Origin: Candidatus Korarchaeum cryptofilum OPF8
Lineage (GTDB): Archaea; Korarchaeota; Korarchaeia; Korarchaeales; Korarchaeaceae
Direction: 5' to 3'
Assembly (NCBI RefSeq): GCF_000019605.1
Contig: NC_010482.1
Coordinates: 900,001-932,000 of the forward strand
Length of the DNA: 32,000 bases
The notes beneath the pieces were generated by a model, which ran no database searches, was not told the DNA's origin, and worked only from the letters and a program-made list of their open reading frames with translations. Below are positions 471 through 14,546 of this stretch, piece after piece. Made by a program: the position numbers and the translations under genes. The first letter of the stretch is position 1; each line of letters begins with the position of its first letter.

Positions 471-497
471 TTTACATAAAATATATATAAAAATTTC
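471..497 (+). promoter_or_regulatory. TATA/BRE-like A/T block, likely promoter of the FtsZ-paralog operon
   Basis: tttacataaaatatatataaaaattt is the strongest TATA-like element in the 430-nt A/T-rich intergenic region. It predicts a 5-prime UTR of about 75-100 nt ending at a GGAGGT Shine-Dalgarno site (583-588). Confidence 0.45.
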
Positions 498-596: not shown

Positions 597-1610
597 ATGG
601 CTAGCAGTAGGGCCGGTCTTCCAACGAGATTTGAGGAAATACCAACTAAAATCACTGTTTTGGGCGTTGGAGGAGCAGGAATAAAGGCTATTGATAGCTT
701 AGCAAGATCTGGAATGGAATTGGCGAAATTAGTCGCTTTAGACTCTGATCTGAATGCCCTAAGGCAGGTCAAGGCACATGAGATCATCCAGGTCGGGGAG
801 AATACGCTTAGGGGGAGAGGAAGCGGAGGAGATATAAGCCTAGCCCAGAAAGCAGTCGATGAGGATTTAGACAAGGTTATAAGGACTCTAGATGTCTGCG
901 ACCTCCTCATAGCTGTAGCTGGACTTGGCGGAGGTATGGGAAGCGGTGGATTGCCATATCTCCTGAGGGCGATAAGGGATCAGTATGGGGATAAAGCCCC
1001 GGCTATGATATCTATCGTAACGATTCCCTTCAGGTATGAAGGGCAGACGAAGATGAAGAATGTCCAGTCGGGATTGAGGGAAATAGTTGTCGTGAACGAT
1101 AGTGTCGTGGTGAACATGAACGATGTCCTCCTTGAGAAATTCGGTGAGATGCCTGCTCAAGTTGCTTACTCGAGGATGGACAATATACTGAAGATGGCCA
1201 TAAATTACATAGTTGAGATGCTGGATCCCAGGGACACTTTGCAGAGGCTCGACTTCCCAGATCTCAAGGGGATGATAGAGAGATCCGGGATAGGGTTCAT
1301 AGGCATAGGTTCCCACAGGAGCGTCAGGAAAGCTGTTGAAAGCGCTATAGATACTAGGTTGCTAGACGCAGAGCCAACTTCAGCCTCAGGTTATCTCCTC
1401 TACATCAAGATACCGCCAACTGCGAGTCTTTCGGAGGTCATAGATGGGCCTAGGCTCATAACGGAGAAGTATGATGTCGAGAGAATTTCATTCGGGGCTA
1501 GATTGAACCCCATGCTCAGAACACCGGAGTCCTTCGTTTACGCTACTGGCGTCGACTCTCCCTTCGTGAAGGAGATGATAGGAGATGTTAAAGAGCTCTT
1601 GAGGGAGTGA
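597..1610 (+). CDS. FtsZ/tubulin-superfamily GTPase, paralog 1 (tail-less, divergent)
   Basis: ORF 591-1610. ATG 597 lies 8 nt after GGAGGT (583-588), and GTG 591 is also in frame. Ordered FtsZ motifs are GVGGAG (T1), ALDSDLNAL, GRGSGGDISLA (T3-like), GLGGGMGSGG (T4 tubulin signature), IVTIPFRYEG, T7 region RLDFPD (1245-1262) and GIGFIGIG at the C-domain start. Confidence 0.9.
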   Translation: MASSRAGLPTRFEEIPTKITVLGVGGAGIKAIDSLARSGMELAKLVALDSDLNALRQVKAHEIIQVGENTLRGRGSGGDISLAQKAVDEDLDKVIRTLDVCDLLIAVAGLGGGMGSGGLPYLLRAIRDQYGDKAPAMISIVTIPFRYEGQTKMKNVQSGLREIVVVNDSVVVNMNDVLLEKFGEMPAQVAYSRMDNILKMAINYIVEMLDPRDTLQRLDFPDLKGMIERSGIGFIGIGSHRSVRKAVESAIDTRLLDAEPTSASGYLLYIKIPPTASLSEVIDGPRLITEKYDVERISFGARLNPMLRTPESFVYATGVDSPFVKEMIGDVKELLRE

Positions 1611-2635
1611 TGAGAATGGCTATCAGGGGAAGGATGGTCGATAGAGGGTTGGAGAGTGTAGAGAAAGCGACCGAGGCCAAGATAAATATAGTGGGCATTG
1701 GAGGATGCGGCAATAACATAATAAGCGCATTTTACAAGAAGTTCCCGAAGAACGTAAAGACGATAGCTGTCAATACTGATTCCGCTGTACTGAAGAAGGC
1801 CGATGCCGATGAGAAGGTCTTAATAGGAAGGTATACTCACAAGGGAAGGGGAGCCCAGGGAGTACCTGATCTAGGGAGAGAGGCGATGGAGGAGGATATA
1901 GAAAGCGTATTAAGAGCTTTGGATGAGAACGTGGGCATCGTTATAGGCATAGCTGGGATGGGAGGCGGAACTGGTTCAGGAGGTCTCCCGGTGCTCATGA
2001 GGGAGATAGGCTTGAGGAAGAGAGAGGTGATAAAGATCTCGGTGGTCACATTACCAATGAGGGAAGAGGGAGAGGAGAGGAAGAGAAATGCCCAATTCTC
2101 ATTGAAGGAGACCTTAGAGGTTTCCGATGTGACTGTCGTAAATGCTAACGACTTAGCTATGGAGAAAGCGAAAAGCGTGGATCTCAACTATGCATTCTCA
2201 ATGGTCAATAGGAAGATAGAGAGGAGCATCTATGCTCTCGTTAAGATGCAGAGCTCAGAGACAGGACCTGGCTACGTTAACGTTGATCTGAGCAATTTCG
2301 CGAGGATATCCTATCAGTCTGGCTTGGGCTTCATAGGAGTGGGGAGAGGTCGCTATATATTCGAGGCTTTCGATGATGCCCTGCAGGATGATTATGCCAA
2401 GTGTGACTTAACGGAGGCCAAGGGAGCGATAATATACTTTGAGGGCAAATCCGTCGACCTGAGGGTGGATCAGATGAGGGAAGCGACTGATATATTGAGC
2501 AGAAGGTACAGGATTCCCACTGTGTTCATGGGAGTCAGGCCTACCTTCGAGTACCCTGATGTGAGGGTCAACCTCCTCGTGACTCAGGTGAGGTCTCACT
2601 ATGTGGATGATTTTTTAGCTGAGTTAGGTTTGTGA
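1607..2635 (+). CDS. FtsZ/tubulin-superfamily GTPase, paralog 2
   Basis: The start overlaps the paralog-1 stop. Candidate starts are GTG 1607, ATG 1610 and ATG 1616, and ATG 1616 has the best spacing to GGGAGTGAT. Motifs are GIGGCGNN, AVNTDSAVL, GRGAQGVPDLG, GMGGGTGSGG, VVTLPMREEG, T7 NVDLSN (2279-2296) and GLGFIGVG. Confidence 0.9.
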   Translation: MMRMAIRGRMVDRGLESVEKATEAKINIVGIGGCGNNIISAFYKKFPKNVKTIAVNTDSAVLKKADADEKVLIGRYTHKGRGAQGVPDLGREAMEEDIESVLRALDENVGIVIGIAGMGGGTGSGGLPVLMREIGLRKREVIKISVVTLPMREEGEERKRNAQFSLKETLEVSDVTVVNANDLAMEKAKSVDLNYAFSMVNRKIERSIYALVKMQSSETGPGYVNVDLSNFARISYQSGLGFIGVGRGRYIFEAFDDALQDDYAKCDLTEAKGAIIYFEGKSVDLRVDQMREATDILSRRYRIPTVFMGVRPTFEYPDVRVNLLVTQVRSHYVDDFLAELGL

Positions 2636-2644
2636 GTTGGGGGG

Positions 2645-2953
2645 ATGGATATGTTCCGTAGGAAGAAAGAGGAAGAGAAATCGCCTGCTCAACCTCCCGT
2701 TCAACCTCCTGTTCAGCCTGAGCCTCGAGTATCCGTTGCTGAGCTGGTTAACAGGTACTTAGATGAGAACAAGGGAGAGGTCTCACTCGCATGGTTCGCG
2801 AGGCAGGAGAAGTTCCCATATATACCTCCCCTATTAGCGGTCAAGGAATACGTTGAGGCGAAGGGAGGAAGCGTATCAGATATGGAAGAGCTGAGGAGGA
2901 CTTATATGAGGATACTGGAGTCCAAGATGGCATCTATGGGAAGCGCGCTATGA
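2645..2953 (+). CDS. Small operon-embedded protein (102 aa): basic N-terminus, QPPV repeat linker, about 65-aa helical C-terminal domain; function unknown
   Basis: ORF begins 9 nt after the paralog-2 stop and is preceded by GGGGGAT. No competing ORF, and codon usage matches its neighbours. Sequence begins MDMFRRKKEEEKSPAQPPVQPPVQPEP. Confidence 0.7.
   Translation: MDMFRRKKEEEKSPAQPPVQPPVQPEPRVSVAELVNRYLDENKGEVSLAWFARQEKFPYIPPLLAVKEYVEAKGGSVSDMEELRRTYMRILESKMASMGSAL
2690..2719 (+). repeat. In-frame tandem repeat encoding QPPV-QPPV-QP
   Basis: caacctcccgtt (2690-2701) and caacctcctgtt (2702-2713), followed by cagcct. Confidence 0.8.
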
Positions 2954-2964
2954 GGTGAGCTTCA

Positions 2965-3960
2965 ATGATGTCTAGGTCCGAGTTAGCTAGGGCTTCCGAG
3001 CTCTCCGCCCTCAAGATGGTGCTAGTGGGCGTTGGAGGATGCGGTAACAATACAGTGAACAATGTAAAGAGGTACGGTGTCAGAGTTCCAACTGTCGCGG
3101 TCAATACTGACGCTCCCACGCTGCAGAGGATAAGTGCTGACATAAAGATATTGATCGGGGAAGGCGCTCACAAGGGAAGGGGAGCCGCTGGTTCGCCAGA
3201 GCTAGGCAGGCAAATAGCGGAGCAGGATATGGACAAGATATTAGCCCCGCTGAGGGACAAGGAACTCATAATGATAACTGCAGGCATGGGAGGAGGTACA
3301 GGGACAGGAGCTGGACCGACGATAGCTGAAGCTATCAAGGAGAAGTTCCCGGACAAGATAGTCATAGGGATAGTCACTTTACCTTTCACATCTGAGGGGC
3401 CGACTAGGATAAGGAACGCCCAGTGGGGCCTCTCCAGGATGCTCGACTCCGCTGATATGACTGTAGTCAATGCTAACGATTTACTCAAGGAGAGGGCAGG
3501 TAACTTACCAGTTAGCCAGGCTTTCAGGGAAATGGACAAGCTCCTAGTCGATATAATAGATTCTATAGTGGGTCTCCAGGATATAGTACCGCAGCCGGGT
3601 CTCGTGAACATAGATTACAGCAATATGGAAGTCTTAGTGAGGGGCTCTGGCTTGGGCTTCATAGGTATAGGGAGAGGGAGAAGCTCGATGGAAGCTTTCA
3701 GAAATGCATTAGCTGCGAATTACAGCCAGGCAGATATAAGGAACGCTAAGGGAGCTATAGTCTACGTTGAGGGCAATCAATCGCAGCTGGTGATGAGGGA
3801 GCTCGACAGGATACCTCAAATGCTTTCGAGCGATTACAATATAATGAGCATATTCTGGGGAATAAAGCCGAACTGGAAGCTCTATGAACCCAAGATAATG
3901 CTTCTGGCGACTGGAGTTAGATCTGAGCTCGTCGATAGATGGTTACAAGGAGGGATATGA
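2965..3960 (+). CDS. FtsZ/tubulin-superfamily GTPase, paralog 3
   Basis: GAGGTGA precedes ATG 2965. Motifs are GVGGCGNN, AVNTDAPTL, GRGAAGSPELG, GMGGGTGTGAGP, IVTLPFTSEG, T7 NIDYSN (3607-3624) and GLGFIGIG. It is the closest relative of paralog 2, sharing a 19-nt identical stretch at 1837-1855 and 3168-3186. Confidence 0.9.
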   Translation: MMSRSELARASELSALKMVLVGVGGCGNNTVNNVKRYGVRVPTVAVNTDAPTLQRISADIKILIGEGAHKGRGAAGSPELGRQIAEQDMDKILAPLRDKELIMITAGMGGGTGTGAGPTIAEAIKEKFPDKIVIGIVTLPFTSEGPTRIRNAQWGLSRMLDSADMTVVNANDLLKERAGNLPVSQAFREMDKLLVDIIDSIVGLQDIVPQPGLVNIDYSNMEVLVRGSGLGFIGIGRGRSSMEAFRNALAANYSQADIRNAKGAIVYVEGNQSQLVMRELDRIPQMLSSDYNIMSIFWGIKPNWKLYEPKIMLLATGVRSELVDRWLQGGI

Positions 3961-4196
3961 TGATCAAGAGGGAGGAGGTAGTGGGAAAGGAGGTAATAGA
4001 TAGCTCAGGGAGGAGGGTAGGGGTAGTGGATGATGTCGTCATAGATCAGGAGGGAAAGGCTAGCCTCCTCGTCAGGGTGAAGATAGTTAGAGGAGGAAGT
4101 GAGAAAGTCCTGGAGTACACACTCCCCCCATCAAATATTTTAGCTGTTGGTGATGTTGTTTTAGTTAAAGGTATTGTGGAGGTGAGGAGGAAATGA
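3957..4196 (+). CDS. Stand-alone PRC-barrel domain protein (about 79 aa)
   Basis: ATG 3957 overlaps the paralog-3 stop (ATATGATG) and follows GGAGGGA. The longer track ORF starts at 3939. MMIKREEVVGKEVIDSSGRRVGVVDDVVIDQEGKASLLVRV...LPPSNILAVGDVVLV matches the PRC-barrel pattern (G-x-x-V-x-D-x-x-G-x-x-[IV]-G-x-V-x-D-[VL]-x-[IV]-D). Confidence 0.8.
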   Translation: MMIKREEVVGKEVIDSSGRRVGVVDDVVIDQEGKASLLVRVKIVRGGSEKVLEYTLPPSNILAVGDVVLVKGIVEVRRK

Positions 4197-5182
4197 GTTG
4201 GAGGAGAGGAGAGCCCACTTCCCAGCTCAAGCTGGCTGTGGTGGGCATAGGAGGAGCAGGTTGCAACATGATAACGAACATCAAGAGGACCGGCTTCTCG
4301 GATGCGAAGCTGATAGCGGTTAATACCGATGCCGCCTCTCTCAGTGCAACGAAAGCGGATCATAAGGTGCTCGCGGGCGAATCTTTCCTAGGAGGAAGGA
4401 GCGCCAGAACTATAGAGAATGGGAAGAAAGCCATGGAGGCTGTTAAGGAGAACCTGATATCTATGCTGAGCGATAGGGAGCTCATAGTACTCTTAGCTGG
4501 TTTGGGAGGAGGTGCGGGAACAGGAGGAATAGTTACGTTAGCTGAGACGATAAAGGAGAGCTTACCGAATGCCCTAACGATAAGCTACGTTGTTATACCA
4601 TTCGCGAGCGAGGGAGAGGTGAGGATAAACAATGCGAAGTACGGTCTCTCCGAGATAATAGATCTCTCCGATGTCACTTGGGTAGCTTTCAATGATGTGC
4701 TGAAGAGGAAGTTCACGAACATGCCGCTGACTAGGGCATATAAGATGATGGATGATAGGCTCTTCAACGTCATAAGAGGTCTGGCTTCCCTTCAGAACCT
4801 CTCACCGCTTCCGGGGATGCAGAATGTCGATTTTGCGATAATGAAGGAAATTGCCAAGGGATCTGGCTTAGGTTACGCTGGATTCGGGGAAGGGAGGACA
4901 GCAAGAGAGGCATTCGAGTCTTCCTTAGTTGATCCCTTCGGAGATGCTGATCACAAGGGAGCTAAGGGTGTAGTTGGGATACTTGAGTCCACTGAGACAG
5001 CTGTCTCGGTTGAGGGGATGACATACGTTCAGGATGTCCTAACGACTAACCTGGGAATACCTGAGGTCTACTTCGGTCTCAAGCCGAGCATAGAGATGAC
5101 CACTCCCAAGGTCACTGTCTACACATTCGGAGTTAAGTCAAGGATGGTGGAGGACTTCCTGAGTTCTATGGGAGGTGGCTAA
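4193..5182 (+). CDS. FtsZ/tubulin-superfamily GTPase, paralog 4 (most degenerate T3 region)
   Basis: ATGA overlap with the PRC-barrel gene stop. Motifs are GIGGAGCN, AVNTDAASL, GLGGGAGTGG, VVIPFASEG, T7 NVDFAI (4823-4840) and GLGYAGFG. The T3-equivalent reads GGRSARTIENG rather than G-x-G-x-G-x-x-P. Confidence 0.88.
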   Translation: MSWRRGEPTSQLKLAVVGIGGAGCNMITNIKRTGFSDAKLIAVNTDAASLSATKADHKVLAGESFLGGRSARTIENGKKAMEAVKENLISMLSDRELIVLLAGLGGGAGTGGIVTLAETIKESLPNALTISYVVIPFASEGEVRINNAKYGLSEIIDLSDVTWVAFNDVLKRKFTNMPLTRAYKMMDDRLFNVIRGLASLQNLSPLPGMQNVDFAIMKEIAKGSGLGYAGFGEGRTAREAFESSLVDPFGDADHKGAKGVVGILESTETAVSVEGMTYVQDVLTTNLGIPEVYFGLKPSIEMTTPKVTVYTFGVKSRMVEDFLSSMGGG

Positions 5183-5185
5183 GCA

Positions 5186-6157
5186 ATGTCAGGAGCTCCT
5201 GAGGGTGCCAGGGTAACGATGACGGTCGTAGGTGTAGGAGGGGCCGGTTGCAATACTTTAAACAGACTCAAGGAAGTAGGTGCGCCCGTAAAGACGATAG
5301 CAATACATACCGAAGCTAATCATCTAAAGGCGATCAAATCCGATGTCAAGCTTCTCGTCGGGGAAACAGTAACTGGCGGTTTCGGTAGCGGAGGCAACCC
5401 CAATGTGGGTGAGAGAGCTATAATGGCGGATCTGGATAGGATAATGGCAGCTATAGGTAGGCCGCACGTCCTCATAGTGACTGGAGGGCTAGGAGGAGGA
5501 ACCGCTTCGGGAGGAATTGCGCCTATACTCTCGGCAGTTAGGGACAGGTTCCCCGATGTCATAAGGATAGCTTTGGTCTCCTTCCCCTTCTCTTGGGAGG
5601 GGTTGGGAAAGGTAAATAACGCTAGATATGGCCTCTCGAGGATAATGGGGGTAGCGGATCTCACGATAGTGAACTTAAACGATATATTGAGCAGGAAGAT
5701 CGGGTACATACAGGTTCAATATGCATTCAAGTACGCTGACTCACTGCTAGCAGCTGTCATCTCAGATCTCGCTAACCTGTTCTACATGCCCCATGTGGTC
5801 AGCATAAGCTTCGCTGACTTCGAGGCTGTCGTTAGAGAGGCTGGCTTAGGTGCCGTAGGGCTTGGAGTCGGCGGAAGGGTTGCCGATGCAGCGAAGACAG
5901 CCCTAGGGAACATATTGCTCGACGCTGAGATAAAAGAAGCTGACTCCGCGCTAGTTTACTTGCAGGCGACTCCCAATACGAGCTTAGAGGAGGCTGGCTC
6001 TGCTACCAAGCTCCTAACTGAGGATTACCTCCTCGAGAGGGTCTACTGGGGATTCAGGATAGCTGAAGATCTCAACGAGCCCAGGATAACTATAATAGCC
6101 TCGGGCGTGAGGTCCCCAACGCTAGAAGGTCTGCTCGGGATCTCGGCCACTAGATAA
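5186..6157 (+). CDS. FtsZ/tubulin-superfamily GTPase, paralog 5
   Basis: Starts 3 nt after the paralog-4 stop, with GGAGGTGG upstream. Motifs are GVGGAGCN, AIHTEANHL, GGFGSGGNPNVG, GLGGGTASGG, VSFPFSWEG, T7 SISFAD (5801-5818) and GLGAVGLG. Confidence 0.88.
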   Translation: MSGAPEGARVTMTVVGVGGAGCNTLNRLKEVGAPVKTIAIHTEANHLKAIKSDVKLLVGETVTGGFGSGGNPNVGERAIMADLDRIMAAIGRPHVLIVTGGLGGGTASGGIAPILSAVRDRFPDVIRIALVSFPFSWEGLGKVNNARYGLSRIMGVADLTIVNLNDILSRKIGYIQVQYAFKYADSLLAAVISDLANLFYMPHVVSISFADFEAVVREAGLGAVGLGVGGRVADAAKTALGNILLDAEIKEADSALVYLQATPNTSLEEAGSATKLLTEDYLLERVYWGFRIAEDLNEPRITIIASGVRSPTLEGLLGISATR

Positions 6158-6162
6158 ACTAC

Positions 6163-6176
6163 TTTTTTTCTTTTTT
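6163..6176 (+). terminator. Oligo-T terminator of the FtsZ-paralog operon
   Basis: T7-C-T6 begins 6 nt after the TAA at 6155-6157. It is the first oligo-T tract after seven tightly packed genes. Confidence 0.65.
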
Positions 6177-6263: not shown

Positions 6264-7172
6264 ATGGCTTCGGATGAGGATTCCAGCAGGATTGAACTGA
6301 GCGTTAATAAGGCACCACCGCTCTACCCTGTGAAGCTTAGCCTCGAGATGAGGCAGGAACTTGTCGTTAGATCGCTTAAAGTGAGCAATTATATAAGCAT
6401 AGCTAAGGAGACAGGCATCCCCTTAGCTAAGGTAATGAAGATAATGTCGACGCCCAGCTCACCTATGCCCCTCGCCCTAGTTTTGAAACTAGCTGAACTC
6501 GCTAGAATAGATCTATGGGACGTCCTCCGATCTATCGAGGGCATGGGCATAAGGAAGTTCCTTAAGCCCAATTTCGATGTTGAAGCCGCGGCTTCCTTCA
6601 TAGGTTATGCCGTCTCGAGCAGCTCGAAGTTCAAGGTGGGAAGGGGAAATGTAACCGTATCCCTGAGGTACGATGATGATTTCCAGCTCTCACACATCAT
6701 AGATCTATCTAAGAGGATCCTGAACATAGAGGCGTCGGATATCTCCATCAATAGGAGGGAGAGGAAGGTCTATCTATTATCTCAGTTCGGCGTTATATTG
6801 CTCCTCTTTGGAGCTCCGACGAAGAGAGAGTTTTACGATGGCTGGGAGATCCCATGTTGGCTTGAGAGGTACCCATCCCATTTCCTGAAGACTTTCCAGA
6901 GCGGAAGGTTATTCAGGAGCGTGCCCTCTAGGGGATGCGCTAGGTTCTACTTCAAGACGTTCAACATGGAGGGGATGCTCAAGTTCATAGAGAGGCTCAG
7001 AGGCTTATACGCGAGGGTAGGGGTTAATATGGAGGAGAGGCCCAGGCTACTCTCAGATAACATAATATACATCGAGATATGCAGGAGAGCAGTCCTCGAG
7101 GCTCTGCTTTACTCGATAGGCTTCACGTCTCAAAGAAAAATAAGGGAGATTTCCCAGCTCCTGGGGAGATAG
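6264..7172 (+). CDS. Hypothetical protein with an N-terminal helix-turn-helix and a possible degenerate LAGLIDADG-like domain
   Basis: 302-aa ORF. A TATA-like atatttttatc lies about 27 nt upstream of the ATG, suggesting a leaderless transcript. The HTH-like segment is VSNYISIAKETGIPLAKVMKIM. AASFIGYAVSSSSKF resembles a LAGLIDADG helix but lacks the acidic residues. Confidence 0.6.
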   Translation: MASDEDSSRIELSVNKAPPLYPVKLSLEMRQELVVRSLKVSNYISIAKETGIPLAKVMKIMSTPSSPMPLALVLKLAELARIDLWDVLRSIEGMGIRKFLKPNFDVEAAASFIGYAVSSSSKFKVGRGNVTVSLRYDDDFQLSHIIDLSKRILNIEASDISINRRERKVYLLSQFGVILLLFGAPTKREFYDGWEIPCWLERYPSHFLKTFQSGRLFRSVPSRGCARFYFKTFNMEGMLKFIERLRGLYARVGVNMEERPRLLSDNIIYIEICRRAVLEALLYSIGFTSQRKIREISQLLGR

Positions 7173-7451
7173 TCACTTGATCTTATTCATTATTGATTGC
7201 TTAATCCCCTCTAAGTCCTGAACCAAGGCCTTTCTATCGTCTGGATCCAGCTCCTCTAGGCTTCCATAGTTCTGCTTGAGGTAATCTATCCAGGAGTTGG
7301 GTATCTCCTTGTCCTCCTCCTCAAGCATCTCATTCAGCCTCTGGAGCTCCCTTATCAGATCCGCTACTTTGGGCTTGGAGTAGATGAGCTTATCCTCAAC
7401 GGACTGAATGAACTCGCCGAGCTTGAAGGATAATCTGGGGTCTGAGTACAT
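7173..7451 (-). CDS. Small acidic helical hypothetical protein (92 aa)
   Basis: ORF lies 4 nt downstream of the 7456-8787 gene on the same strand. Its stop abuts the stop of the convergent 6264-7172 gene with no spacer. Confidence 0.6.
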   Translation of the reverse strand: MYSDPRLSFKLGEFIQSVEDKLIYSKPKVADLIRELQRLNEMLEEEDKEIPNSWIDYLKQNYGSLEELDPDDRKALVQDLEGIKQSIMNKIK

Positions 7452-7455
7452 CCTC

Positions 7456-8787
7456 TCACCCTGTTGGGGGCTTTATCACTATGCTAACCTCCTCCTTCTC
7501 CTTCCTCCTCTTGTATATCAGGAAGCCAGCTACAGCTATTACTACTATAACCACGGCTATCACAGCTATCATTATGTTCCTCTGCTTCTCTTCCTCCATC
7601 CTCTTGATCATCTCCTTCTGTTCAGTTACGTAAGACTTCGCCTCATTGCTCAGATTCTCTATGCTATTTAAGATGGAGTTGGCCGTCTGATTAGCCCCTG
7701 AAAGGTCTCCAGCTGACCACTTCTCATATACCGCTCTCTTCTCCGAGTTGAGCCTCGAGACCTCATTATAGAACTTATCCAAGGATATGTTGGGCTCGCT
7801 CTTCCTCGTCTCCTCGAGATATGATGCGAATTGAGATAACTTCGTCTCAACAACCACTAGCTTTGAAACGAAGCTCATGTAGTCGTTTATCTTCCTCTCA
7901 ATCGCTTCGAGCTGGCTTAAGGCTTCCTCACTAGCTCCCCTATCTATCATAGCCTTCACGCTCTCAAGGCTCTTGTTGATGCCACTCGCGACATTCAAGA
8001 GCGTTGATGAATCTCCTCCCACCCTATCTAAATCGCCTTTCATGTTCACGAAGCTGGAGAGCTTAGATCTGACTTCCTCATATTTCCTCTTCGCTAAGGA
8101 GGGAGATGAGAGCCAGGAGAAGAGTTCTTTAGTGAATAACTTGTTATCCTTCTGAGAGAGAAGAGCCCCGCTGAAGAAATCTACTGAGGATACGACTACC
8201 CTTCCCATCCCGTAGTTCTGTCCCACCATCAAGACTAGGTTACTCTGACGCGGGTCCGTCTCAGTGAACCTCCCATTCTTATCCCTATCTATCCATACTT
8301 CCTTACTGATCAGGAACCTCGGCAAGTTAGCTGAGAGGCTCAATGAACTCCCTTTGACTATCACTTCTCTTGAGTACTTGAAGTAAGTCGAGTTAACGGT
8401 GGCCTCGAATGGGTCGCAACCGCCTATGACCTTTATCGTGCACAGAGGATCGTCGGTAGACATAGCATTGAATACTGCGCTCACGGCGTTCCTGACTATT
8501 AGTAGGGAGTGACCAGCTCTCACATAAGAGTCCAGCTGGCTGATCTCACCCTCGCTCAATGGAGCAGTTTGGTTCACGATCACCAATATATCTATATCCT
8601 CGGATACGGTATCAACATCCTTAACTATGTAGCCCTCGCTCTCAAGTAGCTTCTTTAGCTCCGGGAACTTTGCAGAGGAAAGTCCGTGCTTCTTATCGAA
8701 TCCCACTGTAATGCTTCCTTGAGACTCGGCCATTACAGGTGCAAGTAGTATTAGAAGCGCTAATAGGACTACAATTCTTTCTCTCAT
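7456..8787 (-). CDS. Secreted, C-terminally membrane-anchored protein: signal peptide, alpha/beta domain (DUF4350/GldG-like by eye), long coiled coil, TM anchor
   Basis: ATG at 8787 is preceded by GGTGGAGGTGATC, a near-perfect anti-16S SD. The track ORF extends to 8886 without support. N-terminus MRERIVVLLALLILLAPVMAES is a signal peptide. C-terminus IMIAVIAVVIVVIAVAGFLIYKRRKEKE is a TM anchor followed by basic residues. Confidence 0.75.
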   Translation of the reverse strand: MRERIVVLLALLILLAPVMAESQGSITVGFDKKHGLSSAKFPELKKLLESEGYIVKDVDTVSEDIDILVIVNQTAPLSEGEISQLDSYVRAGHSLLIVRNAVSAVFNAMSTDDPLCTIKVIGGCDPFEATVNSTYFKYSREVIVKGSSLSLSANLPRFLISKEVWIDRDKNGRFTETDPRQSNLVLMVGQNYGMGRVVVSSVDFFSGALLSQKDNKLFTKELFSWLSSPSLAKRKYEEVRSKLSSFVNMKGDLDRVGGDSSTLLNVASGINKSLESVKAMIDRGASEEALSQLEAIERKINDYMSFVSKLVVVETKLSQFASYLEETRKSEPNISLDKFYNEVSRLNSEKRAVYEKWSAGDLSGANQTANSILNSIENLSNEAKSYVTEQKEMIKRMEEEKQRNIMIAVIAVVIVVIAVAGFLIYKRRKEKEEVSIVIKPPTG

Positions 8788-9226
8788 GATTAAGATCACC
8801 TCCACCCCGCGCACGGGTGGACATTTAGTTGCCCTAGTGAGGAATAATAAAAATGTTGATGGAGCTTCGTATACTCCCTCATTCAACTCAGTCCTGAGTC
8901 AAAGCTCTTATCATTATTGTAGCACATACCTTCGGATGGAGAGTATTCATCTTTGAAGGAGCTCATAAAGGGAGAGAGCCTCTAAATGGTTGAGGATGTC
9001 AAGATGAGGTTTCAAGATGAACAGCGAGGATCTGAAGATCTACTAAAGGCTGTATAAATGGCTTAAATAGAGCCCTTTGCATAAGGTTCCCTCCCGGACA
9101 ATTTTCTATTAGCTTAATGCGAACTAATTCTTTCATTCGGAGTTGAAAAATAGGTAGGACCTTCCGATTACCCCTCTATTATAATTCGATAGGTCCCTTT
9201 TTCTTGCAATCATTCCCATTAGAATC

Positions 9227-9461: not shown

Positions 9462-10067
9462 TTAAGCTTTGACCTTAGCCTCGGCATATGATTGAATGGA
9501 TCTGCTCATTATGTCAGCTCTCACGGTCTTAAGGAAGTGAATGAATGCTTCTTGAACGCCATCCCCTCGTAAAGCTGAGATGGGGATAACTTCCGCTTCC
9601 ATCCCCAGGAGGCCCTTTATCACATCCGGGGGCTTAGCATCCGGGAGATCCTGTTTATTTGCCAGGACCAGGAATGGGAATCCCGGGGGGAGGACTTCTC
9701 TAGCTTCCTGATACTGGCCGAGAGCGTAGACCAGTTGAACGGGTTGAGTACTATCTACTATCATTATTACGCCATCCTTACCTTTCACCAGCGCCTTCCT
9801 GACGTAAGAGAACGCGATCTGCCCCGGAGTTCCCGTAAGCGTGACCTTCCATATCTCATTGAAGGGATCTAAATTCTCTATACTCTCCTTAGGGTAAAGC
9901 TCGTTCTTCGTAGCATCCCAGAAGATTATTCCGTAATCGAAACCAACGGTTGTGGATAGAGTACCTTTCTCATAATCCATCCTCACAGCAGAAGGATCCA
10001 GCTTCCTTATGAAAGTGCTCTTTCCCGCTTGATGAGGACCTATTATAGCTAGGGAGATCTTCCTCAT
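9462..10067 (-). CDS. MglA-type small Ras-superfamily GTPase
   Basis: G1 is GPHQAGKST and the switch-I Thr sits in STTVGFDYG. G3 is TGTPGQ, with Thr replacing the DxxGQ Asp as in the MglA family. G4 is NKQD and G5 is ISALRG. A 4-nt ATGA overlap joins it to the upstream 528-aa gene. Confidence 0.85.
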   Translation of the reverse strand: MRKISLAIIGPHQAGKSTFIRKLDPSAVRMDYEKGTLSTTVGFDYGIIFWDATKNELYPKESIENLDPFNEIWKVTLTGTPGQIAFSYVRKALVKGKDGVIMIVDSTQPVQLVYALGQYQEAREVLPPGFPFLVLANKQDLPDAKPPDVIKGLLGMEAEVIPISALRGDGVQEAFIHFLKTVRADIMSRSIQSYAEAKVKA

Positions 10068-11650
10068 CCCTTAGCACCTAGCTGCATCTTTACCTCATTC
10101 ACCCTAGATTTGAGCTGGGATATCAGCTCCCTGTACTCAGAGATCCTTCCCATCATGAATAAGGACTTCGCCCTCTCGAAGTCCTCTCTGATCCTCTTTA
10201 TGCCCATATCATCCAAATTTGGGAGCATTACTCCTAAATCAGATACCATATCCTCTATTACCTCTATTTCCATCTCCAATTTCCTCATGTCCTCAGGGAT
10301 TATCCTCATGGCTACCTTATCCTCGTTAACGACCACTATCCCCTCATCAGCTAGGTTCCTGAGGACCCAAGGCCTCCAGCTCCCGGGAATGAACTTCAAG
10401 TCTTGGAGAGATATTTCCCCTCTCTCCCTGAGAAGTGATATTATTTTTTCCCTCCATTTCGGATATAGCTCCAATATTTCACTCATTACCCCAGTATAGC
10501 CGACCGTCTCGGGCATCCCGTAAGAGAGCCTTGAGGCTCTGAGGCAGTTGTTGAGGCTATCCAAGAAAGACTCCGTTGAATCTAATGAGATCTTGCTTAG
10601 ATCTAGCTTTGCATCCTTAGGGATATACTCCAGCTCATCTATGACGCTCTTAATTAGCGAACTTATCCTGTTTAACCTTTCAACCTCCCTCCTCAGGGAT
10701 TCTATATGTATTCTAGATCTTATGAGGAGGGGTATCTTGGGGAAATCCAACCCTATATAGGGAATTATCTCCTTGAACCTTCTGAGCTCCGCTATCCCCT
10801 CCATCCTCTCTAAGAGATCTCCCTTCATCTCCTCAATACTAGCCTTCAGATCTATCAACTTTTGGGAAATTTGAATCAGCTTCTTGGAATCATTCTCAAC
10901 TTCTGCAAGCCTGGAGGTGATATTCTTCAAATATTTCTGCAGGATCCCTTCCTCGACCTCTTGAAGCCTCTCAATAAATCTCTCTCGCAATTCTAAATAA
11001 TGTGAGAGTCTTTCATATCTCACTCCCATCAGATCTAGCTCTTCTTCAATTGATCTCAATTTTTCGAATGCTTCGTTTAGAGATGATATAGCTTCCTCCT
11101 TTATCTTCCTCTGCTCCTCTTTAGGCTCAACTTTCTGCTCCTGGACTTCTTTATGAATCTCGGATTTCTTTAAGATCCTCAAGAAGCTCAGAGCTGCTGG
11201 TATCTCCTCATAACTCCTCAGTTCCTCTATATCTAGCCCCTTTTCACGTATATATGCATTTACTTTGGTGACGAGCTCCCTCTCCAGAGAGTTAACTTCC
11301 TCGAGCGTGACCTCCAGGATCCTCCTTACTTCCTTAATCTTCCCCTTATCCCTGAGGAAGGGCCTCATATAAGCCGGATCCCCTATTAGGCTTGTCACTA
11401 TCCCCTTCACGGACTGGAATAGCAGATTTGCTCTGTTCGATATATCCTCCCCGCTCCCTATTTCCTTTTCGACCTCCGGAGAGATTTCTCCCAGCTTCTT
11501 CACCTTCTCCAGTATTTTCTCGAGTAGGGGAAATAGTTCATCCTTCTTCATCAAGCTCTCAAGCTTATCTATCTTATCTAAGCCGTATCCAGCCTCCAGC
11601 AGAGAGGCCCTCAGCGCCTCCCATGGGTTCTCCGATTCCATACAATCCAT
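10064..11650 (-). CDS. Large coiled-coil protein (528 aa) with a C-terminal winged-helix-like module; function unknown
   Basis: Long heptad-rich E/K/L/I/R sequence. Near the C-terminus, ISLLRERGEISLQDLKFIPGSWRPWVLRNLADEGIVVVNEDKVAM looks like a wHTH. Translationally coupled to the MglA-type GTPase. The alternative start is ATG 11641. Confidence 0.75.
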   Translation of the reverse strand: MDCMESENPWEALRASLLEAGYGLDKIDKLESLMKKDELFPLLEKILEKVKKLGEISPEVEKEIGSGEDISNRANLLFQSVKGIVTSLIGDPAYMRPFLRDKGKIKEVRRILEVTLEEVNSLERELVTKVNAYIREKGLDIEELRSYEEIPAALSFLRILKKSEIHKEVQEQKVEPKEEQRKIKEEAISSLNEAFEKLRSIEEELDLMGVRYERLSHYLELRERFIERLQEVEEGILQKYLKNITSRLAEVENDSKKLIQISQKLIDLKASIEEMKGDLLERMEGIAELRRFKEIIPYIGLDFPKIPLLIRSRIHIESLRREVERLNRISSLIKSVIDELEYIPKDAKLDLSKISLDSTESFLDSLNNCLRASRLSYGMPETVGYTGVMSEILELYPKWREKIISLLRERGEISLQDLKFIPGSWRPWVLRNLADEGIVVVNEDKVAMRIIPEDMRKLEMEIEVIEDMVSDLGVMLPNLDDMGIKRIREDFERAKSLFMMGRISEYRELISQLKSRVNEVKMQLGAKG

Positions 11651-13643: not shown

Positions 13644-14546
13644 GTGTCGTTCAAGAGGCTCGTTTCAAGTGTATTCGGGCTCTTTAAGAAGCCGACTACT
13701 CTAGTCATTTTAGGATTGGATGGCGCCGGGAAAACGACGATGCTGAATTACTTGCTCACAGGGGAGCCAGGGGTAACCGCACCGACAGTCGGAGCCAATT
13801 TCGAGAAGTTCAAGGTCAAGGAGCTTGAGTTCAACGTATGGGATCTCGGAGGTCAGAAGGCCCTAAGGGGTATGTGGGAGGAGTACGCTGAGAAGGCTGA
13901 TGCGGTAATTTTCGTTCTGGACTCAGCTGATAGGGAGAGATTCCCTGAGGCTAAGGAGGAGCTCTGGAGGATAGTCTCCGTGATAAGGAAGAGTAAGCCT
14001 CTACTCATAATCGCGAATAAGGCTGATCTTGAGAATGCTGCGACAGTAATGGAAGTTATAGAAGCATTGGAATTGACGAAGTTAGAGGGGATGACTTGGC
14101 AGATAGTCTGGGCTAGCGCTTTAACGGGCTTCGGCTTATTCGAGGCCTTCGCATGGATCTATGAGAGGCTGACAGGCAAGGAAGTTTCGCACCCCCTCAG
14201 GATAGAGGATCTGATCGTTTTAGATGATAAAGGGAACCCAATAATTTCAACGAGTTCGACAACTAGCTTGACGCTCAGCGCCTTCGTTTCATTAGTGAGG
14301 AATTATACGACGGAATCTCTCAAAGATATCCCGCAGACGATAGAGATGAGGGACAAGAGATTGATAATAGCGATCAGGGAGGGCCTGATAGGCGCTGCTT
14401 TGGTCCCCCGTTACTCCTCCGAGAGTAAGGTGAAAGCGCTCCTAGTGGATGTCCTCAATAACATAGCGAGGGTCAAGGATAAGGAGAGGGCTAGGGAGGC
14501 CCTCATGGAAGTAATAGAAAAGTACGTTGAGAACGTAGGGACTTGA
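13644..14546 (+). CDS. Arf/Arl/Sar-family-like small GTPase with N-terminal amphipathic helix, fused to a C-terminal Roadblock/longin-type domain (300 aa)
   Basis: GTG start. The nearby ATG at 13642 is out of frame and terminates quickly. N-terminus is MSFKRLVSSVFGLFKK. G1 is GLDGAGKTT, switch I is PTVGANFE, and the interswitch/G3 is FNVWDLGGQ. These are followed by VLDSADRERFPEAKEEL, G4 ANKADLENA and G5 ASALTGFGLFEAFAWI. Residues about 185-300 read as beta-beta-alpha-beta-beta-beta-alpha (IEDLIVLDDKGNPIIST...). Confidence 0.85.
   Translation: MSFKRLVSSVFGLFKKPTTLVILGLDGAGKTTMLNYLLTGEPGVTAPTVGANFEKFKVKELEFNVWDLGGQKALRGMWEEYAEKADAVIFVLDSADRERFPEAKEELWRIVSVIRKSKPLLIIANKADLENAATVMEVIEALELTKLEGMTWQIVWASALTGFGLFEAFAWIYERLTGKEVSHPLRIEDLIVLDDKGNPIISTSSTTSLTLSAFVSLVRNYTTESLKDIPQTIEMRDKRLIIAIREGLIGAALVPRYSSESKVKALLVDVLNNIARVKDKERAREALMEVIEKYVENVGT

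What the first reader, a model, noticed from the sequence alone, without database searches (positions are those of the whole stretch)
597..6157. One transcript, seven proteins: five divergent tail-less FtsZ/tubulin paralogs in a translationally coupled operon
Five consecutive same-strand ORFs (339, 342, 331, 329 and 323 aa) each carry the full ordered FtsZ motif set. That set is T1 G-[VI]-G-G-[AC]-G, the NTD..L segment, a T3-like Gly-rich loop, the T4 tubulin signature G-[LM]-G-G-G-x-x-[ST]-G, [IV]-P-[FM]-x-x-E-G, a T7 region and the G-[IL]-G-x-x-G-x-G C-domain start. Gene junctions are overlaps of 1-4 nt (1607/1610, 3957/3960, 4193/4196) or gaps of 3-11 nt, with GGAGG-type SD sites inside the preceding gene. 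The only promoter-like block lies upstream of 597, and the first oligo-T tract follows 6157. None of the five has a disordered linker or conserved C-terminal peptide after the globular C-domain. Canonical FtsZ uses that element to dock onto SepF/FtsA-type membrane anchors. As far as I know, archaea normally carry one or two ftsZ genes plus dispersed cetZ genes. Five paralogs with coupled, probably stoichiometric, translation look like the subunits of a dedicated multi-component filament or sheet. Paralogs 2 and 3 are the most recent pair, sharing an identical 19-mer at 1837-1855 and 3168-3186. The others are much more diverged, so the array is old and maintained. I have a vague recollection that multiple FtsZ paralogs were noted in korarchaeal genome papers. 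I cannot verify that, and I know of no functional description.
Basis: partly seen in the sequence, partly recalled or inferred. Interest (0 to 1): 0.9.

Follow-up and report, generated by a model that had tools for sequence, protein, structure and literature searches.

The report
Korarchaeal five-FtsZ paralog operon
This is the already published seven-gene cluster of Candidatus Korarchaeum cryptofilum, holding five FtsZ cell-skeleton paralogs plus two small partner proteins; it is real, ancient and conserved, its function has never been tested, and only one of the five paralogs keeps the intact catalytic loop that triggers GTP hydrolysis in a neighbouring subunit.

Summary
Window 597-6157 holds seven tightly packed same-strand genes: FtsZ paralogs ZA, ZB, ZC, ZD and ZE, an 85/79-aa PRC-barrel protein, and a 100-aa orphan protein (S102). 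The window is Ca. Korarchaeum cryptofilum OPF8 (ACB07638-ACB07644). The cluster is not new: it is attributed to Elkins et al. 2008 and was cited in 2011 and 2023 as a "seven-gene cluster ... five ftsZ paralogs" with a PRC-barrel gene. I found no functional study. The genome also has two canonical FtsZ and a SepF elsewhere (Pende 2021), so the array is supernumerary. New here: (1) gene order and 1:1 orthology hold in arrays down to ~45-55% identity; (2) the five paralogs form one clade, FtsZ-like and not CetZ-like; (3) N233, D235 and D238 of the T7 loop are invariant in 108 canonical archaeal FtsZ, yet only ZA keeps both Asp, with paralog-specific substitutions conserved across lineages; (4) all five lack the linker and GID tail; (5) S102 always sits between ZB and ZC and matches no known fold; (6) three neighbouring genes co-occur with the array. 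Best reading: a co-assembling, mostly GTP-locked FtsZ-derived polymer with trans-acting adaptors. This is inferred, not shown.

The parts
476..496 (+). A/T-rich TATA-like block (ATAAAATATATATAAAAATTT), candidate archaeal promoter about 100 nt upstream of ZA
   Evidence: Longest A/T-only run upstream of the array. Promoter function is inferred, not tested.
597..1610 (+). ZA: FtsZ paralog 1 (337 aa, ACB07638). The only paralog with both T7 Asp (RLDFPD, nt 1245-1262). 16-aa tail.
   Evidence: PF00091 E 1.4e-29. TIGR00065 177.9 bits, below the 295 cutoff. M. jannaschii FtsZ1 150 bits against CetZ 44. T7 [R/H]xDxxD in all ZA orthologs.
1607..2635 (+). ZB: FtsZ paralog 2 (342 aa). Canonical nucleotide pocket. 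T7 NVDLSN (nt 2279-2296): second catalytic Asp replaced by Asn.
   Evidence: PF00091 E 5.4e-34. Start overlaps the ZA stop by 4 nt. T7 NVD[LF][SH]N conserved in orthologs.
2651..2953 (+). S102: 100-aa orphan protein with an N-terminal M-x-x-F-R-R-K-K motif, a Pro-rich variable linker and a four-helix C-domain.
   Evidence: No Pfam or NCBIfam hit. Only 10 clusters among 1.84e9 representatives. AF2 pLDDT 81, C-domain above 90. No Foldseek PDB hit with E<1. Lies between ZB-type and ZC-type genes in every array that carries it.
2965..3960 (+). ZC: FtsZ paralog 3 (331 aa, ACB07641), the most FtsZ-like. T7 NIDYSN (nt 3607-3624): second Asp replaced by Asn.
   Evidence: PF00091 E 3e-41. TIGR00065 230.6 bits. 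M. jannaschii FtsZ1 200 bits against CetZ 61. Exact match to ACB07641.
3957..4196 (+). PRC-barrel protein (79 aa from ATG 3957), MTH1859/CdpB type.
   Evidence: PF05239 E 4.7e-7, 30.2 bits against cutoff 21.2. 1PM3 MTH1859 E 4e-5; 8ONW/8QZO PRC-barrel chains E ~0.005. Chain lengths 92 and 76 match the A. fulgidus CdpB1:CdpB2 crystal. Same slot in L005, L009, L011 and L014.
4193..5182 (+). ZD: FtsZ paralog 4 (329 aa, ACB07643). Degenerate T3 (GR-SARTI), T4 GGGAGTG. T7 NVDFAI (nt 4823-4840): second Asp replaced by Ile.
   Evidence: PF00091 E 5.6e-29. Exact match to ACB07643. T7 [N/H]VDFx[I/V/S] in orthologs.
5186..6157 (+). ZE: FtsZ paralog 5 (323 aa, ACB07644). T2 HTE, T4 GGGTASG. T7 SISFAD (nt 5801-5818): Asn and first Asp lost, second Asp kept.
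   Evidence: PF00091 E 1.5e-27 and FtsZ_C 38.4 bits. M. jannaschii FtsZ1 169 bits against CetZ 35. T7 S[I/V][S/G]xxD and T4 GGGTASG conserved.
6163..6176 (+). Oligo-T tract TTTTTTTCTTTTTT, a candidate archaeal terminator 6 nt after the ZE stop.
   Evidence: Only one other T5+ run lies inside the array (2611-2616).
6264..7172 (+). W302: 302-aa protein of unknown function, a conserved neighbour of the array.
   Evidence: No Pfam hit. Homolog (29% identity, E 2e-29) lies divergently upstream of ZA in L005/L011.
7173..7451 (-). W92: 92-aa helical protein, a conserved neighbour.
   Evidence: Homologs directly downstream of ZE in L009 and in the L011 operon, and next to a divergent tubulin-like gene in L014. 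No Pfam hit above threshold.
7456..8886 (-). W476: membrane protein (N-terminal hydrophobic segment, weak DUF4350/ABC_transp_aux-like domain, coiled-coil region, C-terminal TM segment plus basic tail), a conserved neighbour.
   Evidence: Homolog (26% identity, E 1e-38) follows ZE by 10 nt on the same strand in L011. Weak sub-threshold Pfam hits only.

Best explanation
The locus is a conserved korarchaeal operon for a specialised FtsZ-derived cytoskeletal module that exists alongside the canonical FtsZ/SepF division genes. Five ancient FtsZ paralogs are co-expressed from tightly coupled genes with a CdpB/MTH1859-type PRC-barrel protein and a lineage-specific small protein (S102). The paralogs most likely co-assemble head-to-tail into mixed protofilaments or finite hetero-oligomers. 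In FtsZ and tubulin, the T7 loop of one subunit completes the GTPase site of the subunit below it. Here only ZA keeps both catalytic Asp, ZE keeps one, and ZB, ZC and ZD have lost the key one. Most longitudinal interfaces would therefore hold GTP without hydrolysing it, like the tubulin N-site, which would give a stable polymer with hydrolysis confined to interfaces capped by ZA (and perhaps ZE). All five lack the linker and GID peptide that canonical archaeal FtsZ use to dock on SepF. Attachment would therefore be supplied in trans, by the PRC-barrel (whose relatives bind SepF and polymerise) and/or by S102 (hydrophobic-polybasic N-terminus, flexible linker, helical domain). Shown: gene content, conservation, orthology, residue patterns, absence of tails. 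Inferred: co-transcription, co-assembly, GTPase asymmetry, adaptor roles, cellular function.
For: The five are FtsZ-family proteins scoring below the FtsZ equivalog cutoff. They form one clade (100% bootstrap) with five monophyletic orthogroups (78-100%). Gene order and junctions of -8 to +15 nt are conserved in arrays at 45-68% identity. N233, D235 and D238 are invariant in 108/108 canonical archaeal FtsZ clusters, whereas the array shows slot-specific patterns conserved across about six lineages: ZA [R/H]xDxxD, ZB NVDx[S/H]N, ZC Nx[D/N]x[S/A]N, ZD [N/H]VDFx[I/V/S], ZE S[I/V][S/G]xxD. That pattern indicates selection for specialised bottom faces rather than decay. The T7 split matches the phylogenetic split: ZA+ZE 90.5%, ZB+ZC+ZD 100%. 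E. coli D212A retains 7% GTPase activity. Tails are 11-16 aa against a median of 28 aa, with no GID motif. The PRC-barrel is related to MTH1859/CdpB, and CdpB1 binds SepF and forms filaments with CdpB2. S102 is always found between ZB and ZC. Canonical FtsZ x2 and SepF are encoded elsewhere. Precedents for FtsZ heteropolymers are chloroplast FtsZ1/FtsZ2.
Against: There is no direct evidence of any protein-protein interaction, polymerisation, GTPase activity or transcript structure. No multimer prediction could be run. Array composition varies: L016 lacks ZD and PRC, L007/L008 carry only ZC-ZD-ZE, and L010 has ZB-ZC without S102. A fixed five-subunit stoichiometric repeat is therefore not universal. 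T7 mutants of E. coli FtsZ can fail to polymerise, so some paralogs may not polymerise at all. An internal T6 run (2611-2616) and several A/T-rich octamers inside the array leave room for sub-operonic transcription. The tree lacked FtsZ2, CetZ and the genome's own canonical FtsZ as references.
Confidence: 0.45

Rival explanations
1. Five independent homopolymer-forming cytoskeletal proteins with separate jobs (shape, division, positioning), as in the CetZ1-6 radiation of haloarchaea. On this view they sit together only because they arose by tandem duplication.
For: The paralogs are only 27-41% identical, which is enough for functional divergence. Array composition varies between lineages, so subsets can evidently function without the rest. 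CetZ paralogs in Haloferax have distinct or opposing roles (titles and abstracts).
Against: Order, tight coupling and slot-specific T7 chemistry are conserved over deep divergence. A homopolymer of ZB, ZC or ZD would have no catalytic Asp238-equivalent at any interface, which is unlike any canonical FtsZ (0/108 deviate). CetZ genes are dispersed, not in one operon.
Confidence: 0.25
2. The array encodes accessory modulators of the canonical Z ring rather than a separate filament. T7-defective paralogs would cap or stabilise FtsZ1/FtsZ2 protofilaments, and the PRC-barrel would link them to SepF. The module would then be a lineage-specific elaboration of the divisome, suited to very thin filamentous cells.
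For: The genome has canonical FtsZ x2 and SepF and no ESCRT-III. PRC-barrel CdpB proteins organise SepF/FtsZ rings. Bottom-face T7 mutants of FtsZ are known to affect assembly. The cell is an ultrathin filament.
Against: Five distinct modulators plus a private small protein is elaborate for capping. The paralogs keep complete two-domain FtsZ bodies, and ZB and ZC keep near-canonical nucleotide pockets, consistent with their being polymer subunits. There is no evidence that they contact canonical FtsZ.
Confidence: 0.2
3. The paralogs are non-polymerising or decaying FtsZ pseudo-GTPases retained by chance or for an unrelated non-cytoskeletal role, like the thaumarchaeal FtsZ that does not polymerise.
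For: Four of the five paralogs lack an invariant T7 catalytic residue, and some have deviant T1, T3 or T4 loops. N. maritimus FtsZ lacks the T7 motif and does not form filaments.
Against: The substitutions are fixed per orthogroup across lineages ~50% identical, reading frames are intact everywhere, and T4 GGGxGxG, T5 PFxxEG and T6 ND are retained. The array occurs in many Korarchaeum MAGs. This pattern is purifying selection, not decay.
Confidence: 0.05

Closest known systems
The same locus as attributed to Elkins et al. 2008 (PNAS 105:8102), cited by Moriscot et al. 2011 (PMC3132758) and Nussbaum et al. 2023 (bioRxiv 10.1101/2023.03.28.534543)
   Same: [quoted passage not shown]
   Different: As far as the held papers show, these papers only note the cluster. 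They give no conservation analysis, T7 analysis, tail analysis or functional data. Elkins 2008 itself could not be read.
Archaeal FtsZ1/FtsZ2-SepF-CdpB1/CdpB2 divisome (Haloferax volcanii, Archaeoglobus fulgidus)
   Same: FtsZ-family GTPases work together with a small all-PRC-barrel protein. The array proteins are closest to archaeal FtsZ1 in sequence.
   Different: Canonical FtsZ have an invariant NxDxxD T7, a 25-30 aa linker and a GID C-terminal domain that binds SepF. The array paralogs have neither the tail nor, in four of five, the full T7. Haloarchaeal cdpB genes are not in operons with ftsZ. Here there is one PRC gene, not a B1/B2 pair, inside the array.
Alpha/beta-tubulin (and bacterial BtubA/B): heterodimeric polymer with one catalytic and one non-catalytic T7
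   Same: Paralogous subunits in which only some bottom faces carry the catalytic carboxylate. In tubulin, alpha-E254 is catalytic and beta has Lys at the equivalent site, giving a non-hydrolysing N-site (my own knowledge of tubulin biochemistry, not checked in a paper here). The array shows the same kind of asymmetry.
   Different: The array has five paralogs, not two, and belongs to the FtsZ lineage: ~24-37 bits to tubulins against 150-200 to FtsZ. Co-assembly is not demonstrated.
Chloroplast FtsZ1/FtsZ2 (FtsZA/FtsZB) heteropolymers
   Same: Diverged FtsZ paralogs that co-polymerise, with division of labour between stability and dynamics.
   Different: Plant paralogs keep the catalytic T7 Asp; D275A is an engineered mutant. 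At least FtsZ2 keeps a C-terminal docking peptide, and the genes are dispersed nuclear genes.
CetZ family (haloarchaeal tubulin-like shape and motility proteins)
   Same: Multiple extra tubulin-superfamily paralogs in one archaeon, some without FtsZ-like tails, with non-division roles.
   Different: In sequence the array proteins are far from CetZ: 35-61 bits against 150-200 bits to FtsZ. CetZ genes are dispersed.
CdpC / SepF-type membrane anchors (N-terminal membrane motif, disordered linker, C-terminal FtsZ-binding domain)
   Same: S102 has the same three-part layout: a short hydrophobic-basic N-terminus, a variable Pro-rich linker and a folded C-domain.
   Different: S102 has no sequence or fold similarity to SepF or any PDB entry and no zinc fingers, and its N-terminal motif is too short for a classical amphipathic helix. 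The anchor role is a guess from architecture only.

Membership tests
Tubulin/FtsZ superfamily | GTPase domain PF00091 above the gathering score | tested here: met
   All five score 97.5-142.2 bits against a cutoff of 33.
Tubulin/FtsZ superfamily | Ordered T1, T4 (GGGTGxG), T5, T6 nucleotide-binding loops | tested here: met
   All present in the alignment. Deviations: ZA GGGMGSG, ZD GGGAGTG with degenerate T3, ZE GGGTASG.
Canonical cell-division FtsZ (TIGR00065 equivalog; archaeal FtsZ1/FtsZ2) | Score at or above the curated equivalog cutoff (295.2 bits) | tested here: not met
   166.4-230.6 bits for the five. Pende et al. list only ACB08186 and ACB08089 as FtsZ for this genome.
Canonical cell-division FtsZ (TIGR00065 equivalog; archaeal FtsZ1/FtsZ2) | Invariant T7 synergy loop N-x-D-x-x-D | tested here: not met
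   108/108 canonical archaeal FtsZ keep N, D and D. ZA lacks the Asn. ZB, ZC and ZD lack the second Asp. ZE lacks the Asn and the first Asp.
Canonical cell-division FtsZ (TIGR00065 equivalog; archaeal FtsZ1/FtsZ2) | Disordered linker plus conserved C-terminal peptide (archaeal GID motif) that binds SepF | tested here: not met
   Tails are 11-16 aa against a median of 28 aa, with no GID. A short conserved x-hydrophobic-V-D/E-x-F/W-L segment remains, of unknown role.
CetZ | Closer in sequence to CetZ structures (4B45, 4B46, 3ZID) than to FtsZ | tested here: not met
   ZC 61 against 200 bits, ZA 44 against 150, ZE 35 against 169. ZB and ZD were not searched separately but fall within the same clade.
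PRC-barrel / CdpB-MTH1859 type (the 79-aa ORF) | Stand-alone PF05239 domain above the gathering score, similar to MTH1859/CdpB structures | tested here: met
   30.2 bits against 21.2. 1PM3 E 4e-5; 8ONW chains E 0.004-0.006.
PRC-barrel / CdpB-MTH1859 type (the 79-aa ORF) | Binds SepF and forms filaments at the division site | not testable with these tools
   Requires biochemistry. Known only for Haloferax and Archaeoglobus proteins.
SepF (candidate identity of S102) | SepF domain and alpha/beta fold | tested here: not met
   No Pfam or NCBIfam hit at E<=0.01. The AF2 model is an all-helical four-helix domain with no PDB match. The genome's SepF is ACB08158.
Tubulin-like obligate heteropolymer | Paralogs differ in T7 catalytic competence | tested here: met
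   Slot-specific, conserved T7 patterns.
Tubulin-like obligate heteropolymer | Paralogs physically co-assemble through heterotypic longitudinal contacts | not testable with these tools
   No multimer prediction or biochemistry was available.
Single operon | One transcript spans all seven genes | not testable with these tools
   Only sequence proxies exist: junctions of -4 to +15 nt, SD sites, an upstream A/T box and a downstream oligo-T. An internal T6 lies at 2611-2616.

The most novel reading that the evidence does not exclude
The five paralogs are obligate subunits of one ordered heteropolymer in which only the interface(s) capped by ZA (and perhaps ZE) hydrolyse GTP, and the other interfaces are permanently GTP-locked. 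That would be an independent prokaryotic invention of tubulin's catalytic/non-catalytic subunit logic, extended to five subunits. Its membrane or divisome attachment would be outsourced to a PRC-barrel and a private small protein instead of a C-terminal tail.
Probability: 0.3. Interest if true: 0.8.

Novelty: already known. Interest (0 to 1): 0.45.

Why it matters
The cluster is already on record, so finding it is not a discovery. It does remain one of the few natural cases in which several FtsZ paralogs are locked together in one conserved operon with dedicated partner proteins, and nobody has tested what it builds. The conserved, paralog-specific loss of T7 catalytic residues gives a concrete, testable prediction: mixed polymers with few hydrolytic interfaces. 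That bears on how heteromeric tubulin-like polymers with non-exchangeable, non-hydrolysing sites can evolve from a homopolymeric FtsZ. The genetic linkage of a PRC-barrel gene to ftsZ genes is also independent support for the recently established PRC-barrel role in FtsZ systems. The module is a candidate determinant of the ultrathin filamentous shape of Korarchaeum.

Tried and rejected
(1) Reading Elkins et al. 2008 directly: not held by DOI or PMC id, so I rely on two papers that cite it. (2) CetZ membership: rejected on scores. (3) S102 as SepF or any known family: no Pfam or NCBIfam hit. The first AF2 model was poor (pLDDT 65), the second was good (81), and neither gave a Foldseek PDB hit with E<1. 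An exhaustive profile search found only 10 small clusters and one spurious repeat protein. (4) The first bootstrap tree with Biopython timed out. It was redone with vectorised distances. Only NJ was available, and no FtsZ2, CetZ or K. cryptofilum canonical FtsZ sequences could be obtained as outgroups, so affinity to FtsZ1 versus FtsZ2 is unresolved. (5) A literature search for functional work on the korarchaeal array or FtsZ heteropolymers in Korarchaeota found nothing relevant. (6) tRNA scan of the window: none found. (7) NCBI organism labels of MAG contigs proved unreliable: L001 is 98% identical to Korarchaeum proteins yet labelled Nitrososphaerota. Placing L011 through its flanking TyrRS gave 89% identity to a 'Candidatus Korarchaeota' protein. 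The other distant loci remain unplaced. (8) The idea that ZA's own nucleotide pocket is universally degenerate was dropped: the T1, T2 and T4 deviations are specific to the genus Korarchaeum. (9) The sigma-70 promoter scanner was not used because the organism is an archaeon.

Full report
WHAT IS THERE. ORF listing confirms seven consecutive plus-strand ORFs between 591/597 and 6157. I call them ZA (597-1610), ZB (1607-2635), S102 (2645 or 2651-2953), ZC (2965-3960), PRC (3939 or 3957-4196), ZD (4193-5182) and ZE (5186-6157). All five large ORFs hit the tubulin/FtsZ GTPase domain PF00091 (E 1e-27 to 3e-41), and three also hit FtsZ_C weakly. All hit the NCBIfam ftsZ equivalog at 166-231 bits, below its 295-bit cutoff. 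The 85-aa ORF is a PRC-barrel (PF05239, 30.2 bits against cutoff 21.2). S102 and the next gene downstream have no family hit. Exact-sequence look-up identifies the window as Candidatus Korarchaeum cryptofilum OPF8: ZC, ZD and ZE equal ACB07641, ACB07643 and ACB07644, and ACB07638 (337 aa) falls in ZA's 90% cluster. Each protein has 90%-identity clusters of 28-36 members from Korarchaeum MAGs.

ANATOMY CHECK. The junctions are -4 (GTGA), +9 (+15 if S102 starts at its conserved Met, 2651), +11, -4 (with the PRC start at 3957, which matches the 78-79 aa orthologs), -4 and +3 nt. GGAGG/GAGGTGA-type Shine-Dalgarno sequences lie 5-15 nt upstream of six of the seven starts (S102 has only a G-run). 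None precedes the next gene at 6264. The longest A/T block upstream is at 476-496, and T7-C-T6 follows the ZE stop at 6163-6176. Internal termination or initiation therefore cannot be excluded from sequence alone. The shared 19-mer is real; it is actually a 20-mer and encodes the T3 motif HKGRGA. Pairwise identities among the five are 27-41%, with ZB/ZC highest at 40.7%.

ALREADY PUBLISHED. [quoted passage not shown] 2008. Moriscot et al. [quoted passage not shown] I could not read Elkins 2008 itself. Searches for functional or structural work on the array found none. The existence of the cluster is therefore known, and its function is not.

GENOMIC STATUS. Pende et al. 2021 (Supplementary Data 1) list ACB08186 and ACB08089 as FtsZ and ACB08158 as SepF for K. 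cryptofilum, with no ESCRT-III. None of these is in the array, so the five paralogs come on top of a canonical division set. The same table lists 4-5 FtsZ, some with adjacent accession numbers, in certain Altiarchaeales and Micrarchaeota. Multi-copy FtsZ is therefore not unique to this organism.

WHAT KIND OF FtsZ. Against solved structures, ZC, ZA and ZE score 200, 150 and 169 bits to M. jannaschii FtsZ1. They score 61, 44 and 35 bits to CetZ, and at most 37, 25 and no hit (at E 0.001) to tubulins. Beyond its orthologs, the nearest database relatives of ZC are ordinary archaeal FtsZ at about 38% identity, including P. abyssi FtsZ1. A neighbour-joining tree (320 columns, 200 bootstraps) recovers each orthogroup as a clade: ZA 100, ZB 100, ZC 78, ZD 99.5, ZE 100. 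All array paralogs form one clade separate from canonical archaeal FtsZ references (100). Inside that clade are two subclades, ZB+ZC+ZD (100) and ZA+ZE (90.5). The caveat is that no FtsZ2, CetZ or korarchaeal canonical FtsZ sequences were available as references.

CONSERVATION. A scan of one genome per species, plus contig look-ups, recovered arrays from several lineages:
- The full ZA-ZB-S102-ZC-PRC-ZD-ZE order occurs in Korarchaeum relatives (L001-L004, 90-98% identity).
- It also occurs in the L005/L011/L012 lineage (53-68%) and in L009 (47-54%, with a 79-aa PRC that BLAST missed).
- L014 has ZA-like-ZB-S102-ZC-PRC-ZD plus two very divergent tubulin-like genes on the other strand.
- L016 has ZA-ZB-S102-ZC-ZE, without ZD or PRC.
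- L007 and L008 have only ZC-ZD-ZE, and L008 comes from the same MAG as the full array L009.
- L010 has ZB-ZC with no S102 between them.
Intergenic distances stay between -8 and +15 nt. A tyrosyl-tRNA synthetase flanking L011 is 89% identical to a protein labelled Candidatus Korarchaeota. Other MAG labels are unreliable: L001, at 98% identity to Korarchaeum, is labelled Nitrososphaerota. The array is thus ancient and under selection, but its composition is not rigid.

T7 ASYMMETRY (new here). In FtsZ and tubulin, the T7 loop of one subunit inserts into the nucleotide pocket of the next and supplies the catalytic acidic residues. The conserved motif is NVDFAD, and E. coli D212A retains 7% GTPase activity. 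In 108 canonical archaeal FtsZ clusters, the positions equivalent to M. jannaschii N233, D235 and D238 are 100% invariant. In the array:
- ZA has [R/H]-x-D-x-x-D, with both Asp kept in every lineage.
- ZB has N-V-D-x-[S/H]-N.
- ZC has N-x-[D/N]-x-[S/A]-N.
- ZD has [N/H]-V-D-F-x-[I/V/S].
- ZE has S-[I/V]-[S/G]-x-x-D.
These patterns hold across all lineages sampled. They follow the phylogenetic split: ZA and ZE keep the D238-equivalent carboxylate, and ZB, ZC and ZD have lost it. ZB and ZC otherwise keep near-canonical T1-T6 pockets. ZD has a degenerate T3, and ZE has conserved T2 (HTE) and T4 (GGGTASG) variants. ZA's pocket deviations (T1 GGAGIK, T2 LDSD, T4 GGGMGSG) are specific to the genus Korarchaeum. 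Fixed, slot-specific substitutions at otherwise invariant catalytic positions argue for specialised bottom faces rather than decay. They are what one would expect if most longitudinal interfaces are meant not to hydrolyse GTP, as at the tubulin N-site. That comparison rests on my own knowledge of tubulin, not on a paper checked here.

TAILS. Canonical archaeal FtsZ carry a median of 28 residues after the GVxS end of the globular domain, and many end in an LGIEF or IDIPEL-type motif. Pende et al. define the archaeal C-terminal domain by an almost invariant GID. The array paralogs end 11-16 residues after GVxS (9-16 in orthologs), with a short conserved pattern x-hydrophobic-V-[D/E]-x-[F/W]-L and no GID. 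'Tail-less' is therefore correct for the linker and the SepF-binding peptide.

THE TWO SMALL PROTEINS. The PRC-barrel is most similar to MTH1859 (1PM3, E 4e-5). It also matches two PRC-barrel chains of 92 and 76 residues (8ONW), the lengths reported for the A. fulgidus CdpB1:CdpB2 crystal. CdpB1 binds SepF, CdpB1 and CdpB2 form alternating filaments, and both are needed for an ordered FtsZ/SepF ring in Haloferax.

S102 has homologs only inside such arrays. There are 17 close ones and 10 clusters among 1.84 billion representatives, and in every locus that has it, it lies between ZB-type and ZC-type genes. Its alignment shows a conserved N-terminal M-x-[F/L]-[F/W]-R-R-K-K motif, a variable Pro-rich linker and a C-domain with invariant E, A, W, P, P and G. 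AlphaFold gives a confident four-helix C-domain (pLDDT above 90) and a disordered N-terminal region of about 27 residues. No PDB fold matches at E<1. The layout resembles membrane anchors such as SepF or the newly described CdpC, but that is an analogy of architecture only.

WIDER NEIGHBOURHOOD. Three adjacent genes co-occur with the array in distant lineages:
- W302 (6264-7172) has a homolog divergently upstream of ZA in L005/L011 (E 2e-29).
- W476 (7456-8886, minus strand; membrane protein with weak DUF4350-like hits) has a homolog that follows ZE by 10 nt on the same strand in L011 (E 1e-38).
- W92 (7173-7451, minus strand) has homologs after ZE in L009, in the L011 operon, and next to a divergent tubulin-like gene in L014.
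The functional unit may therefore be larger than the seven genes.

INTERPRETATION. The best-supported reading (confidence about 0.45) is a co-expressed, co-assembling FtsZ-derived polymer. Hydrolysis would be confined to interfaces capped by ZA (and perhaps ZE), and attachment would be provided in trans by the PRC-barrel and/or S102. It would operate alongside the canonical divisome, possibly in shaping or dividing the ultrathin filamentous cell. The rivals are independent homopolymers with separate roles (0.25), accessory modulators of the canonical Z ring (0.2) and non-polymerising relics (0.05). Variable array composition argues against a strict five-subunit stoichiometric repeat. No interaction, assembly, GTPase or transcript data exist.

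VERDICT. The cluster itself is already known, and the conserved T7 asymmetry, the constant S102 partner and the extended neighbourhood are, as far as I could find, unreported. They make the heteropolymer hypothesis directly testable.

Noticed in passing
window 13644-14546 (+): A 300-aa protein with a strong Arf-family small-GTPase domain (PF00025, E 1.6e-49, 168 bits) plus ~125 extra C-terminal residues. This eukaryote-like small GTPase sits about 7 kb from the FtsZ array.
   Followed up: no
window 9462-10067 (-) and 10064-11650 (-): A second small GTPase (weak GTP_EFTU/Arf/Ras hits) overlaps by 4 nt the end of a 528-aa protein with no Pfam hit. This is a possible two-gene GTPase module.
   Followed up: no
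window 6264-7172 (+), 7173-7451 (-), 7456-8886 (-): Three uncharacterised genes (W302, W92, and the membrane/coiled-coil protein W476) have homologs adjacent to FtsZ arrays in distant lineages. In L011 the W476 and W92 homologs continue the operon directly after ZE.
   Followed up: partly
L008:7941-10840 and L009:5632-11141: One MAG carries both a full seven-gene array and a second ZC-ZD-ZE mini-array without PRC or S102. The two ZE copies share long identical N-terminal stretches, which suggests recent duplication, gene conversion or an assembly artefact.
   Followed up: partly
L014:5469-6407 (-) and 7029-7958 (-): Two extremely divergent tubulin-like genes (23-31% identity to array paralogs, with T4 motifs GLGKGTGGG and a lost motif) lie on the opposite strand next to an array, one of them beside a W92 homolog.
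   Followed up: no
window 2611-2616 (+): The only T5+ run inside the array (TTTTTT) lies ~20 nt before the ZB stop, at the boundary between the ZA-ZB pair and the rest. It could be a partial internal terminator.
   Followed up: no
literature: Zhao et al. state that only one genome (a Micrarchaeota archaeon) had a PRC-barrel gene next to FtsZ-division genes. Yet the Korarchaeum array has a PRC-barrel flanked by ftsZ paralogs, and their figure highlights korarchaeal PRC sequences. The discrepancy probably reflects how they classified these non-canonical FtsZ.
   Followed up: no
window 888-1316, 1837-2187, 3168-3611, 5320-5709 (-): Long antisense ORFs (116-147 aa) run opposite the FtsZ genes. They are consistent with the strong purine and GC skew of the coding strand (GC skew ~0.16-0.28) and are most likely not genes.
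   Followed up: no
L001 record title: A contig whose array proteins are 81-98% identical to K. cryptofilum is labelled 'uncultured Nitrososphaerota archaeon', and L006 is labelled Thermofilaceae. The taxonomic labels of these MAGs are unreliable.
   Followed up: partly
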